A stretch of 64,000 nt of DNA from Spirochaetia bacterium (lineage in GTDB: Bacteria; Spirochaetota; Spirochaetia; DSM-2461), in the NCBI GenBank assembly GCA_963666985.2, contig CAXXIA010000002.1, forward strand, positions 2,624,001-2,688,000, read 5' to 3'. How positions within the stretch are numbered: position 1 is the first letter of the stretch; every line of letters starts with the position of its first letter. Positions 26,444-64,000 of the stretch are shown in pieces. The position numbers and the translations under genes are program-made. The notes below the pieces were generated by a model. That model did no database searches. It worked only from the letters and a program-made list of their open reading frames with translations, and had not been told where the DNA came from.

Positions 26444-26515
26444 GTCGTCTCCTTTGTTGAACTAAGATAAGCCTGATAAGCCGGGTCGGCAAGATTGTTG
26501 ATGCTTCTCTTCTCC

Positions 26516-26623
26516 GAGGCAATTTCATAATTCATGAAATTGCTTGGAACCGACGGCTGAAATCCCTTTAGAATCAATTATAAAGGTTTTATTTCAGAAA
26601 TCGCCGATTTTTGGAATCGCCTC
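26516..26623. mobile_element. ~108-bp MITE-like element (empty copy of the element hosting the IS1111 at 61047-62688)
   Basis: Terminal IRs GAGGCAATTTCA / TGGAATCGCCTC and two internal palindromes. Close match, in reverse orientation, to 61047-61104 + 62633-62688. Confidence 0.75.
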
Positions 26624-26634
26624 CTCATGTTATA

Positions 26635-59650: not shown

Positions 59651-60886
59651 TCACGCAGGTTCGAATTTCAAAGACACGATCCGCTTCTTTTTAACTTCCA
59701 GAACCGTATAGCGTCCTTCGGAACACGTGAGGACTGTTCCCGGCGTGGGGATTCGTTCGAGTTTCTCCAGCAAATATCCGCCGATTGTGTGCGTTCTGCT
59801 GTCGTGTTCCAAATTGAGTCCCAAAGTATCGGCGATGTCGTAAAAGTCGGCATCGCCCTGCATAATCCAGCCGCCGCTTTCATCGGGGATAATGGGATCG
59901 TCTCCTCCGGATTCCCTTTCATCGTACAGCTCGCCGAAGATTTCTTCCATGATGTCTTCTCTGGTTACAATGCCGTCCAGGCCTCCGTACTCGTCGAGAA
60001 CCACGGCAAGATGAATGGGCTCTTTTTTGAGTCGGAAGTAGAGTTCGTGAGCCTTCATCGTTCCGGGGACGAGGTAGGGCGCTGAAGCTATTGTTTTTAT
60101 CATGGCGCCGGGAGTTTTTTTCATGGCGCCCGCGAGGTCGGTAAGGGCAATTGATCCTGTTACGTGTTCTCCGTCTTTTTTAAGAACCGGAGCGCGGGAA
60201 TGTCCGGATTCGACAAAGCGGTCCATCGCTTCCGAGACGCTCATATCCTCGACGAGAGAGAACAGGTCGGTTCTATGAGTCATGATGGCTTCGACCGGCG
60301 TGTCGTTGATTCGAAAGACATTCCGAACCATTTCTTTTTCGAATGATTCCACAACACCCTCATTCTCAGCCGCTTTAACATGGTGCAGCAGGAATTCCAG
60401 TGTTAATTTGGGTGTTTCCTTTCCGGCGATCATTCGCGTGAGCGTACCGCTGATGGCGGTGACGATCCTGATGACGGGCCGGAAAATCCAAGAGAGAAAC
60501 CTTACCGCACGGACACTGCGGAGTGTGAGCTTTTCCGCGGTTTTCAGGGCAATCTGTTTCGGGGTGACTTCACAGAATATGAGAACCAGCAGCGTGAGAA
60601 TCCCCGTAGCCGCGGCAACGTAGGTATTTCCGAAGAGACGGATGGTCATGGATGTCGTCAGAGCGGAAGCGCCGATGTTGGCCAAGTTGTTGCCGATCAG
60701 AAGCGTCGTCAGGAGGATATCGGGCCGATCCGTCATGTTTTTAACAAGCCGGCCCCGTTTCCCTCGGTTTTCGGACATTGCGGAAATTTGTCCCGGAGTG
60801 AGCGAGGTGAAGGCCGTTTCAACCGATGAGAACAGAGCCGATGCAAGAATTAGCAGAATAAGAAACGCGAGCAGCCAGGCTGTCAT
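59651..60886 (-). CDS. HlyC/CorC-family (DUF21-CBS) membrane protein
   Basis: FSSVETA, LIGNNLAN, CEVTPK, HSRAPV, VLDEYGG, EDIMEEIFGE. Start is uncertain (up to 60961). Confidence 0.9.
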   Translation of the reverse strand: MTAWLLAFLILLILASALFSSVETAFTSLTPGQISAMSENRGKRGRLVKNMTDRPDILLTTLLIGNNLANIGASALTTSMTIRLFGNTYVAAATGILTLLVLIFCEVTPKQIALKTAEKLTLRSVRAVRFLSWIFRPVIRIVTAISGTLTRMIAGKETPKLTLEFLLHHVKAAENEGVVESFEKEMVRNVFRINDTPVEAIMTHRTDLFSLVEDMSVSEAMDRFVESGHSRAPVLKKDGEHVTGSIALTDLAGAMKKTPGAMIKTIASAPYLVPGTMKAHELYFRLKKEPIHLAVVLDEYGGLDGIVTREDIMEEIFGELYDERESGGDDPIIPDESGGWIMQGDADFYDIADTLGLNLEHDSRTHTIGGYLLEKLERIPTPGTVLTCSEGRYTVLEVKKKRIVSLKFEPA

Positions 60887-61173
60887 TCGGCGGATTGGAC
60901 GGCGGCGCGAGATGAAAACGCGCCGGATATAGGCAGGGGATCTTCCATAGATCTTTATCATCCCTTATCGGAGGCGGAGGGACAAGAGGCGGCGGGAAAT
61001 CCATTATCCGGTCGGTATGCCGGTTTCCCGAAAACGTTTCAGAGGGGAGGCGATTTCAAAAATCAGCGATTTTTGAAATAAAACCTTATATAACAGCCTG
61101 TTGATATGATGTGAACTGTAAACCCCCAACCGATTATTTTTTCCCAGAGCCCTCCTCATGAGTGTCTCGGAGA

Positions 61174-61380
61174 GAAGAGCACGAATAAGAGCCCGGCAGC
61201 AAATAACGACGGTTGATCACTCTGATATTCGTGGATCAAGCCGAAGGCCCGCCTACATGGTCGTGATCCGTCGGGAGCTGCCTCAGACTAAAGGCGCGGG
61301 TCCGGCCGATATCGGCCTGTCGCATAGCAGGCGCGAGGATTCTCCTTTCCGTGTGCTGCCGGGCCCTCATTCGTGCTCTC
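61174..61380 (-). ncRNA. putative seekRNA/bridge RNA of the IS1111-type element
   Basis: About 26-bp enclosing stem (61174-61200 with 61355-61380). Two internal-loop domains carry matches to the target flanks and the circle junction. Confidence 0.7.
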
Positions 61381-61395
61381 CTGTTTTCATATCCG

Positions 61396-62535
61396 TTAGG
61401 CTATGACTTCCTGGTGCTTGGATTCAACAGTTGTACCGATCGCCCAAACAAACCCAATGAGATCTCGAGCTACAGCAGTAATCACTTGCTGCTTTGTCTT
61501 CCCACGACCAAGAAGCCTCACGTACCTGGAATGAAGCCTGTGGCGAGCGGTGCCGGCAATCTCAATGACTTCGGCGCTGAGCCCCTCTTGGCGTGCCCGC
61601 AACCTGGGAGTCAGAGTTGGCTGAAATCGTGCCGACCAAGCCGCCTCGACAAGCACCCGGCGGAGGTGCGTGTTGCCTGTCTTGCTTATCCCTCCTCGCC
61701 GAACTCTCTCACCACTGGAGTGTTCACTGGGAACCAGACCGCTGTAACCCATGGCCTGCCGGGCGGTAGGGAATCGTGATAACTGACCAACTTCCGACAC
61801 GATGGTTACGGCGCTGATTTTCGCGATACCTCGCAGTGCCTGGAGGGCCGCTATCACCTCCTGCATGGACTCCGGAGCATTTTCCACGACCTCGTCGATG
61901 AGTTTCTCCAGGCGTTCGATTCGTTGGCCTTGGTGATGGATCTCATCCAGGTAGTCTGCCAGAGTTGCCTGTTGAGCGTACTGTTCGAATTTTACCTCTT
62001 TGCGTATCCATTCGAGGTAACGCTGCGTCCATGCTTTCATCTTCACTGTCGGACGTTTGCCATGCCTGAGCAGGAACTTACTCAGACGATGCCGAGCTCG
62101 AAGCTGATCCTGTTTTGCAGCTTCCCGTGCTCGGACCAGATCTCGAAGAGCCTCGTGTTCGGCGTCTGGCACCCAGACCGAAGTAAGGTCTCCTGCTCGG
62201 TAGGCTCGAGCCAATCGCTCGGCATCCCGCCGGTCAGTCTTGATCCGGTCACCGGGTTTCACCGGGATGAGTGTCGGGGCTACTACCTCACAGGTGCAGC
62301 CCAACTTCGTCAGCTGCCAGTACAATGCGTACCCGGTAGGTCCAGCTTCATAACAAGCCGTCCAAGTCGATTTCGGCCCCAGCTTGCCAAGCAGCTTCTT
62401 GATGCTCGGTTCCCGATTCGGGATGATACCGAGGTTTCTGACTTCTCCCCCGTTGGCTTCGGCAACCGCCACTGCAATTGTTTCAGCGTGAACGTCCAAA
62501 CCTACAAACCGCCCCACCGTCGTGTTAAGCTTCAT
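61396..62535 (-). CDS. IS110-family DEDD recombinase/transposase
   Basis: GLDVH, CYEAG, KTDRRDA, GLVPSEHSSG (catalytic Ser region), GNTHLR. Confidence 0.95.
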   Translation of the reverse strand: MKLNTTVGRFVGLDVHAETIAVAVAEANGGEVRNLGIIPNREPSIKKLLGKLGPKSTWTACYEAGPTGYALYWQLTKLGCTCEVVAPTLIPVKPGDRIKTDRRDAERLARAYRAGDLTSVWVPDAEHEALRDLVRAREAAKQDQLRARHRLSKFLLRHGKRPTVKMKAWTQRYLEWIRKEVKFEQYAQQATLADYLDEIHHQGQRIERLEKLIDEVVENAPESMQEVIAALQALRGIAKISAVTIVSEVGQLSRFPTARQAMGYSGLVPSEHSSGERVRRGGISKTGNTHLRRVLVEAAWSARFQPTLTPRLRARQEGLSAEVIEIAGTARHRLHSRYVRLLGRGKTKQQVITAVARDLIGFVWAIGTTVESKHQEVIA

Positions 62536-62910
62536 ATTGCCCCCCTCGTATGTAGCTCTGCGCTACTGTGTGTCTCACAAAAGCGTAACCTACGCGTTTG
62601 CGAGTGGGGGCATTCGGTTCACATCATTGTGACTAAAGGGGTTTCAACCGTCGGTTCCAAGCAATTTCATGAATTATGAAATTGCCTCAGGGGTGAATTA
62701 TTCTTCTCATAACATGCCGGATACGGCAAACGAGAATGATTTGTTTCGCCGATTAGGTCAGGTCGGACAGACGGAATTTTCGGCTGCCTGGGATTTTCTC
62801 GGCCGAAAGCATCGATCCGTTTTTCAATTCGGCCTTAAAAATCTTGCCGCCGACCCTGCTGTCTTAGTATCTTTTTTGACGATATTTCCACTTACGCAAG
62901 GACACAAAAC

Positions 62911-64000
62911 ATGGCCAAAAGAAAGTTCAAGACGGAAGTCAGTCAGCTGCTGAACCTGTTAATTCATTCCCTTTATTCGCATAGCGAAATATTCCTTCGG
63001 GAACTCATTTCCAATGCATCCGATGCCTTGGACAAGCTGAAGTATCTCACTCTTACGGATGAAGGACTTAAAAATCTCGCTTTTAATCCGCGTATCGATA
63101 TCCGAATCGACGGACGGGGAAGCGGAACTCTCGTGATTGAGGACAACGGCATCGGCATGAACGATGAGGATTTGTCCGAGTCGCTTGGAACCATCGCCCG
63201 CTCGGGAACGAAAAACTTCATGGAGAAGCTCACCGGAGACGCCAAAAAGGATTCCAACCTCATCGGCCGTTTCGGTGTGGGATTCTATTCGTCGTTCATG
63301 GTGGCCGACAAGGTTGAGGTGATTTCCCGAAAGGTGGGTGAAGAGAAGGCCTATAAATGGATCAGCGACGGCGAGACCGGCTTTACTATTGAAGACGCCG
63401 AAAGAGAGACGCAGGGAACCACTGTTATTCTGTATCTGAACGAAACCGGTAAAGAGTATGATTCGCAATGGAAAATCAGTTCCGTCATCAAGAAGTATTC
63501 GGACCATATAGCCTTCCCCATTCATCTGCACTGGACCCAGACAACCGGTTCCGGGGACGATGAGAAAACCGAAGAGAAAGAAGAGCAGGTTAATGCCGCC
63601 AGCGCTCTCTGGAAAAGGCCTAAGTCCGAATTGAAGGACGAGGACTATAATGAGTTCTACAAGACCTTATCCCACGAAACCGATGATCCGATGTTTCGCA
63701 TCCACACCCGTGCCGAAGGAACCTTGGAATACACCACGCTGTTTTTTATTCCGAAAACCGCTCCTCCGGATCTGTATTACGCCGATTACAAGCCCGGAGT
63801 GAAGCTTTATGTAAAGAGGGTGTTCATCACCGATGACGAAAAGGAGCTTCTGCCGGTTTGGCTGCGCTTTGTCCGGGGAGTTATCGATTCGGAAGATCTG
63901 CCTCTGAATGTGAGCCGTGAAATTCTTCAGCAGAACAAGGTGATGGCCAAAATTCGGGAAGCTTCGGTGAAGAAGCTGCTCAGTGAATTCCAGAAGTTCT
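62911..64000 (+). CDS. htpG: molecular chaperone HtpG (Hsp90), 5' part, runs off window
   Basis: [42 protein letters not shown]..., [33 protein letters not shown]. Confidence 0.95.

What the first reader, a model, noticed from the sequence alone, without database searches (positions are those of the whole stretch)
61096..62639. IS1111-type element with a decodable seekRNA/bridge RNA that matches its own insertion site
Seen (transposase strand): the empty target reconstructs as CCTTTAG-TC-AACAGGC and the circle junction as ...CATCATA-TC-ACAATGATG.... The downstream non-coding region folds into a long closing stem (61355-61380 with 61174-61200) containing two domains. Domain 1 is CCTC..[GCCTGCT]..hairpin GGCCGATATCGGCC..[CCTTTAGTC]..GAGG: CCTTTAGTC (61286-61294) is a 9/9 match to the left flank plus core (62631-62639), and GCCTGCT (61326-61332) is a 6/7 match to the opposite strand of the right flank. 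Domain 2 is CGACGG-ATCAC...GTGAT-CCGTCG and contains ATATCA (61223-61228), matching the donor junction. Established: IS110/IS1111 recombinases use such RNAs as guides. Inference: a complete natural guide-target pair with a TC core, usable as a programmable recombinase candidate. The donor-loop assignment is weaker than the target-loop one.
Basis: partly seen in the sequence, partly recalled or inferred. Interest (0 to 1): 0.7.

Follow-up and report, generated by a model that had tools for sequence, protein, structure and literature searches.

The report
RNA-guided transposon aimed at transposon ends

Summary
The element is real: 1,532 bp, minus strand 62634-61103, with a 379-aa IS110-superfamily recombinase, 11-bp subterminal repeats and a downstream two-loop RNA. 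All quoted matches are present. Across 30 distinct guide pairs, guides track their flanks far above permuted and slid controls.

Empty sites of homologues read left-AG-right, so the crossover dinucleotide is AG (CT on the other strand, as in IS621), not TC. The ends are the classical 7+3 nt. TC is the element's own left end and the RNA's likely handshake pair: both read AC in a sister clade. Corrected guides: CCUUU-AG and GCCUG-CU.

The right flank is the first 11 nt of an IS1182-type end. Of 11 metagenomic elements chosen only by a 20-nt guide-loop word, 9 are followed by AG plus 4-5/5 of CAGGC.

No empty allele of this site, circle or RNA was seen. It is a new member of a known kind (ISSso6/ISCARN28 subgroup, IS1111-type layout). 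The scan found similar elements before on other DNA, one also with an AG core.

The parts
61103..62634 (-). Whole insertion sequence, 1,532 bp (7-nt left extension including AG, 3-nt right extension)
   Evidence: only full copy in the genome
62628..62634 (-). Left terminal extension AG-TCACA; AG (62634-62633) is the donor copy of the crossover dinucleotide
   Evidence: AG in 46 of 46 unique insertion events; empty sites
62617..62627 (-). Left subterminal inverted repeat, 11 bp perfect (extends to 62605 at 83%)
61396..62535 (-). Recombinase gene, 379 aa; D14, E63, D101, D104 and S274 present
   Evidence: Pfam PF01548 and PF02371; NF033542 262.6 bits, cut-off 140; alignment to ISCro4; motif positions
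61173..61382 (-). Predicted bridge/seek RNA, closed by a 29-bp stem (61354-61382 with 61173-61201)
   Evidence: only match to model R1 in the genome, 150 of 1,703 candidates scored
61326..61332 (-). Right target guide GCCUG-CU, predicted to pair with AG-CAGGC (the site has AA-CAGGC)
61288..61294 (-). Left target guide CCUUU-AG
61286..61287 (-).
   Evidence: TC/TC in 44 of 46 events; AC in 11 of 11 RNAs and 9 of 9 left ends of a sister clade; ISSso6 does not fit
61259..61262 (-). Short right donor guide GACC (GA-C can pair with G-TC of the left end); weakest of the four guides
   Evidence: reads GUC where the left end is AC
61222..61228 (-). Left donor guide AUAUC-AG, matching the right end plus core
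   Evidence: the same 7-mer occurs in ISSso6
61106..61116 (-). Right subterminal inverted repeat
61103..61105 (-). Right terminal extension ATC
61117..61122 (-). Predicted -35 box (TTTACA); on the circle it would lie 17 nt from CACAAT (62631-62626)
   Evidence: Sequence; scoring separates the two registers only weakly
62635..62641 (-). Left half of target, CCCCTTT; 5 of 5 match to the left guide at -5..-1
61092..61102 (-). Right half of target: AA-CAGGC-TGTT, the first 11 nt of an IS1182-type end
62635..62691 (-). First half of a roughly 110-bp intergenic repeat in which the site lies
   Evidence: 57 nhmmer hits in the genome, 49 of at least 80 nt
61044..61093 (-). Second half of the same intergenic repeat

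Best explanation
A single-copy, intact IS110-superfamily element with IS1111-type ends carries a DEDD/serine recombinase gene and a downstream two-loop RNA whose guides match both flanks; the RNA likely directs insertion at an AG/AA dinucleotide, here likely at the end of an IS1182-type miniature element. Shown: the anatomy, the AG register, guide-flank covariation, and the identity of the right flank with IS1182-type ends. Inferred from IS621 and seekRNA work: (1) the element circularises, joining ATC to AG-TCACA and probably forming a promoter; (2) the recombinase binds the RNA, the donor loop reads the junction (AUAUC-AG plus short GACC) and the target loop reads CCTTT-A(G/A)-CAGGC on both strands; (3) the strand that reads CT is cut 3' of the core and exchanged, helped by UC pairing with the incoming donor end, which leaves the donor's AG at the left junction and the target's dinucleotide at the right. 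Inferred history of this site: an IS1182-type miniature element entered the intergenic repeat at TTAG, this element inserted at its end, and a deletion between two GTT words removed the rest of the miniature element (the order of the last two steps is unknown).
For: Covariation (52 of 80 fetched loci plus the window; 46 unique events; 30 distinct guide pairs): left 2.53/4 against 1.24 permuted (maximum 1.93 in 10,000); right 4.17/5 against 1.75 (maximum 2.57); slid controls 0.87-1.43 and 0.93-1.57. Register: uninterrupted copies of the repeat targeted by L005, L017 and kin have exactly AG between the flanks in all 7 loci found, with gaps of -3 to 15 allowed; 56 of 56 empty copies of the repeat targeted by L029/L034 likewise; the rival form occurs in 0 of 3 genomes. 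Published IS1111 extensions are 7 and 3 bp (PMC11187229 Introduction). Both loops share one layout ending in AG. Prospective test: 11 loci chosen only by a 20-nt RNA word, transposases 42-47% identical where present (10 of 11); right junction AG in 11 of 11, then CAGGC in 6, 4/5 matches in 3, one poor match, one cut by the contig end. One such flank (L135; same right flank in L127) leads into an IS1182-like transposase fragment (E 3e-36, below the curated cut-off), and L126 and L129 have a paired inverted end 153-171 nt on. In this genome the same end bounds 8 short elements and one 1,870-bp element with an IS1182 transposase. Two of four orphan left ends run directly into AG-CAGGC or AG-CAGGG (chance about 0.007 each, noticed after the fact).
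Against: No empty allele of this exact site was seen. The 3 intact repeat copies with CCTTTAG continue AATC, and none of the long copies holds TA(A/G)CAGGC, so the site history needs an inferred deletion. The window is the only one of 46 events with AA opposite an AG-type right guide. Left-guide matching is loose beyond -2 (0.67, 0.63, 0.39 at -3, -4, -5). The permutation ignores kinship. Only 17 of 61 YTAR-CAGGC sites in the genome are IS1182-type ends, and 3 of the 11 test loci (L125, L128, L130) show no obvious such end. L127/L135 share both flanks and L129/L132 share a left flank, so about 9 of the 11 are independent. Two of four orphans do not fit. ISSso6 does not show the handshake match. 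There is no evidence of expression, circle or activity, and only one full copy.
Confidence: 0.88

Rival explanations
1. One reading: the core is TC, with a 9-nt left guide ending in the core and a 6-nt spacer between the repeats on the circle.
For: TC lies near both junctions and follows the left guide in 44 of 46 events. Covariation alone cannot separate the two registers.
Against: Empty sites hold only AG. The left end reads AC in a sister clade and GC in ISSso6 while AG stays. The published extensions are 7+3.
Confidence: 0.02
2. The guides are right, but the element has no special link to IS1182-type ends: it takes any YTAG-CAGGC-like site, and such ends are only a common supply of them.
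For: 44 of 61 YTAR-CAGGC sites in the genome are not such ends. The C1 orphan site and 3 of the 11 test loci show no such end.
Against: The window flank, the C2:2335183 orphan and about 6 of the 11 test loci (L126, L127, L129, L131, L134, L135, judged partly by eye) sit at such ends. The same right guide recurs in elements only about 45% alike in protein.
Confidence: 0.35
3. The one-sided inheritance of the core comes from a crossover at or within the A (0-1 nt overlap, both strands exchanged), or from biased repair, rather than from exchange of one strand only.
For: Hall's no-duplication 7+3 convention describes the same pattern. IS621 structures show bottom-strand cleavage (PMC11208158 passages).
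Against: The pattern (left AG and right AA in 14 of 14 AA-target events) is what cutting 3' of CT on one strand predicts. One-strand integration is reported for CazIS110-1 (bioRxiv 2025.10.25.684509 section 7) and one-strand excision for IS621 (bioRxiv 2026.08.31.748434 abstract).
Confidence: 0.45
4. The match is chance, or a product of sequence copied from the site into the element after insertion.
For: The right match alone occurs in 19% of shuffles.
Against: Joint chance is 0.0001. Identical guides sit at many different sites, and the prospective test succeeded.
Confidence: 0.01

Closest known systems
ISSso6 / ISCARN28 / ISEc45 / ISSfr2 subgroup (ISfinder IS110 family)
   Same: 44% identity over 377 aa to a transposase annotated ISSso6 family. 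That element has the same AG, 5-nt + repeat left end, repeat + ATC right end and ATATCAG donor guide, and matches model R1 at 54.5 bits. ISCARN28 and ISEc45 share the same motifs by eye (supplement rows). ISCARN28 is one of six elements with a predicted bridge RNA in PMC11208160 (Extended Data Fig. 10 legend seen; figure not seen).
   Different: Different guides and target; left end TCACA against GCAGT. I found no experimental work on this subgroup in my searches.
IS1111-family seekRNA elements ISEc11, ISKpn4, ISPst6, ISPa11 (PMC11187229; abstract, Introduction, three Results sections and supplement passages read)
   Same: 11-bp subterminal repeats, 7+3 extensions, downstream non-coding region, top-strand complement 5' of the bottom-strand match, overlapping matches.
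   Different: The transposase is 379 aa rather than 330-350 aa and only 26% identical to IS4321 over 254 aa. Their targets are attC, REP or short linear sites.
IS621 bridge recombinase (PMC11208160, PMC11208158, PMC13626964; passages read)
   Same: Separate target and donor loops. Read on the opposite strand, the core is CT and the guide order and handshake position are those of IS621 (inference).
   Different: The RNA is downstream and the subterminal repeats are long. The variable guides are 5+5 nt. Protein match is confined mainly to residues 205-303 (E 4.6e-9).
IS4321 / IS5075 (seen only as a reference title)
   Same: [quoted passage not shown]
   Different: They target Tn21-family repeats; this guide matches IS1182-type ends. 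Distant proteins (26%).

Membership tests
IS110 superfamily (bridge recombinases) | [quoted passage not shown] | tested here: met
IS110 superfamily (bridge recombinases) | Structured non-coding RNA with loops matching target and donor | tested here: met
   Sequence level only:
IS110 superfamily (bridge recombinases) | RNA is expressed, binds the recombinase and is needed for movement; circular intermediate | not testable with these tools
   Only assembled contigs were available; no circle joint was listed
IS1111 group | Subterminal inverted repeats of 11-13 bp | tested here: met
   11 of 11 bp
IS1111 group | Terminal extensions of 7 bp left and 3 bp right | tested here: met
   (register shown in homologues, transferred to the window by alignment)
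IS1111 group | Long non-coding region downstream of the gene | tested here: met
   290 nt downstream against about 100 nt upstream
IS1111 group | Top-strand complement 5' of the bottom-strand match in the RNA | tested here: met
IS1111 group | Transposase related across its full length to IS1111 | tested here: inconclusive
   26% over residues 47-299 to IS4321; named references sat on long branches in a quick tree; IS1111 itself was not compared
IS110 group in the narrow sense (IS621-like layout) | Long non-coding region upstream; no or very short subterminal repeats | tested here: not met
ISSso6/ISCARN28 subgroup | Full-length transposase similarity with shared ends and RNA fold | tested here: met
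   (tested against the ISSso6-family element only)

The most novel reading that the evidence does not exclude
A guide programmed against IS1182-family ends (YTAR-CAGGC) is kept, or has arisen twice, in bridge-recombinase lineages only about 45% alike, making them specialised parasites of another transposon family. In addition, the one-sided inheritance of mismatched cores (14 of 14 natural events) is genomic evidence that this subgroup integrates through one strand only.
Probability: 0.4. Interest if true: 0.5.

Novelty: new member of a known kind. Interest (0 to 1): 0.3.

Why it matters
The mechanism is known, so the element itself is not surprising. Its value is practical. I found no experimental test of this subgroup. 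The subgroup shows natural retargeting of one scaffold to REP-like repeats, attC-like sites, another repeated element and IS1182-type ends. Targeting of IS1182 ends was not found in print, although targeting of transposon ends is known for IS4321/IS5075. The natural core mismatches also give a cheap readout for the open question of one-strand against two-strand exchange.

Tried and rejected
TC core: rejected. One search's pattern allowed gaps of 0-3 only, so the 4-nt rival was tested separately.

Rfam: no match at E up to 1.

Empty allele of the window site: not found. The 30 relatives searched were too diverged, and the joints in contigs came from other copies of the intergenic repeat. No RNA holder was listed, which says nothing about expression. 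The flanks of a variant element in runs X2/X4 could not be read in full.

Junction promoter as a test of register: weak, 8.75 against 8.16 of 12 over 32 end pairs. No internal sigma-70 promoter was found.

First parse of the right guides misread several myxobacterial RNAs and was redone. Rows left out: L010 (right end truncated), L028 (left flank cut), L066 and L079 (guides not parsed), and 24 loci without both ends.

Donor-loop handshake against target +1: 30 of 46 match, but the signal is essentially one clade-level change, so it is not claimed.

Tree: quick tree only, 11 of 34 picked loci skipped, references on long branches. It shows only that the nearest rows are two spirochaete elements (L002, L012; about 70% identity).

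Close homologues in the host family: 2 of 37 genomes had distant matches only (39-42%). The relatives search for the C1 orphan site did not reach the junction.

Not seen: Durrant Supplementary Table 5 (file cut), the Extended Data Fig. 10 image and bioRxiv supplements; they may already give this subgroup's core and group label.

Full report
Observation. On the minus strand an ORF at 62535-61396 encodes a 379-aa protein with Pfam DEDD_Tnp_IS110 and Transposase_20 domains and NCBIfam NF033542. The catalytic residues D14, E63, D101, D104 and S274 are present. Perfect 11-bp inverted repeats lie at 62627-62617 and 61116-61106. The 290-nt region downstream of the gene folds strongly (z = -6.4) and has no Rfam match. 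In shuffles the left 9-mer appears at 0.0005, the right 6/7 match at 0.19 and both at 0.0001. The genome holds one full copy, four orphan left ends and no second RNA match.

Guides track targets. One search kept 80 of 96 related loci. Both ends and both target guides could be parsed in 52 of them plus the window, giving 46 unique events and 30 distinct guide pairs. With one event per pair, the left guide matches positions -5..-2 at 2.53 of 4 (permuted mean 1.24, maximum 1.93). The right guide matches +1..+5 at 4.17 of 5 (permuted mean 1.75, maximum 2.57). Slid controls give 0.9-1.6. Kinship is not corrected, but the RNA scaffold is nearly constant while the guides change. On 21 aligned RNAs, 97.4% of cells in the two-domain structure pair; 6 of 28 pairs show changes on both sides, four of them in the apical hairpin, and most core helices are invariant and so uninformative.

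The core is AG, not TC. Covariation fits either register, so I used empty sites. The repeat targeted by L005, L017, L019, L020, L022 and L067 is uninterrupted in 7 loci, always with exactly AG between the flanks. The GTAG-type repeat targeted by L029 and L034 occurs empty 56 times with no extra bases; the TC-register form occurs in 0 of 3 genomes. The element therefore runs 62634-61103, with a 7-nt left and a 3-nt right extension, the published IS1111 lengths (PMC11187229 Introduction). Both loops have the same layout: guide, ATG-stem, hairpin, stem, guide ending in AG. Read on the other strand the core is CT and the order is that of IS621. The UC after the left guide then sits where IS621 has its handshake guide (PMC11208158 passages). 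In a sister clade this dinucleotide is AC in 11 of 11 RNAs, the left end begins AC in 9 of 9 seen, and the short donor guide changes to match in most (L128 is an exception). ISSso6 keeps AG and ATATCAG but does not show the handshake match.

The target. The site lies in a roughly 110-bp intergenic repeat (57 hits). The left flank is the repeat's own sequence. The right flank begins AACAGGCTGTT, which no intact long copy has, and then rejoins the repeat. That word is the end of a family of 130-162-bp miniature elements (8 paired copies) and of a 1,870-bp element encoding an IS1182 transposase. The simplest history is insertion of a miniature element at TTAG, insertion of this element at its end, and a deletion between two GTT words. 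This is inferred; no empty allele was seen. As a prospective test I scanned metagenomes for a 20-nt word of the RNA containing the right guide. All 11 loci have the same right end followed by AG. The next five bases are CAGGC in 6, one mismatch away in 3, a poor match in 1 and cut off in 1 (chance of 4/5 or better is 0.016-0.027 per locus). About 9 are independent. One flank leads into an IS1182-like transposase fragment, two have paired inverted ends, and three show no obvious such end. Two of the four orphan left ends in this genome run straight into AG-CAGGC or AG-CAGGG; two do not. Only 17 of 61 YTAR-CAGGC sites in the genome are IS1182-type ends, so specialisation is likely but not shown.

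Core inheritance. The left junction is AG in 46 of 46 events; the parsing pattern allowed one substitution, so AA would have passed. The right junction follows the right guide in 42 of 46. Thirteen myxobacterial events and the window have AG left and AA right. Empty repeats of the myxobacterial type read AA in 13 of 13 matches, from 3 of 5 genomes searched. The reciprocal arrangement was never seen. This is what cutting 3' of CT and keeping that strand predicts, in line with one-strand integration by CazIS110-1 (bioRxiv 2025.10.25.684509, abstract and section 7) and one-strand excision by IS621 (bioRxiv 2026.08.31.748434, abstract and passages). A crossover at the A, or biased repair, would look the same, and Hall's no-duplication convention already describes the pattern, so this is a lead only.

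Relation to known systems. The nearest named transposase is of the ISSso6 family (44%); IS4321 is 26% over 254 aa. ISCARN28, of the same subgroup by eye, has a predicted bridge RNA in PMC11208160 (legend seen). All layout features of the IS1111 group are met; full-length protein relatedness to IS1111 is inconclusive. I file it as an IS110-superfamily element of the ISSso6/ISCARN28 subgroup with IS1111-type layout. Searches found no report of IS1182-end targeting, and searches found no experimental test of this subgroup; the library lacks most subscription papers. The labels REP, attC and YTAR target preference are recalled and come from no call. Earlier notes of this scan describe similar elements on other DNA, one with an AG core. 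I suspected the AG register before seeing any of them and tested it.

Verdict. A real, intact, readable RNA-guided element; first reading right in kind and wrong in register; new member of a known kind; interest 0.3.

Noticed in passing
window 26509-26629 (+); 57 hits genome-wide: A roughly 110-bp intergenic repeat with inverted ends and internal palindromes; an intact copy lies in this window. Its mobiliser is unknown.
   Followed up: partly
G000 C2:1503423-1505292 (L118) and 8 short copies, e.g. C1:474666-474827: An IS1182-family element and a family of 130-162-bp miniature elements that share its ends.
   Followed up: partly
G000 C1:1300951, C2:2335183, C2:148691, C2:2249196: Four orphan left ends of this element family (about 40-165 nt, no transposase), all preceded by YT-AG; two run directly into a guide-matching right flank, as if the body had been deleted.
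   Followed up: partly
L044-L046, L050-L054, L056, L057, L059, L062, L073, L078: A mostly myxobacterial clade of homologues sits in attC-like repeats that occur in arrays about 0.5-2 kb apart; possibly an origin of attC targeting separate from ISKpn4/ISPst6.
   Followed up: partly
L027, L029, L031-L036; L005, L017, L019, L020, L022, L067; L008, L009, L023-L025, L070: Mostly acidobacterial homologues target GTAG-type palindromic repeats, one position in another repeated element, and a promoter-like recurring site.
   Followed up: partly
window 61291-61292, runs X2 and X4: A related strain carries a variant element whose left guide differs at two positions (CCTTT to CCACT); one contig stays aligned through the IS1182-type right flank to 61091 and then diverges, which may be a different insertion site.
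   Followed up: no
window 62551-62605 (-): The short left non-coding region is strongly conserved in homologues and holds a terminator-like hairpin at 62595-62583 upstream of the ribosome-binding site; possibly regulatory.
   Followed up: no
window 59651-60961 (-): The downstream host gene encodes a CNNM/CBS/CorC membrane protein and is not interrupted by the element.
   Followed up: no
window 62973-63263 and beyond (+): The DNA upstream of the site is conserved in most relatives at 65-76% and likely codes on the + strand; the 190-aa minus-strand ORF 62959-63531 had no family match and may be spurious.
   Followed up: no
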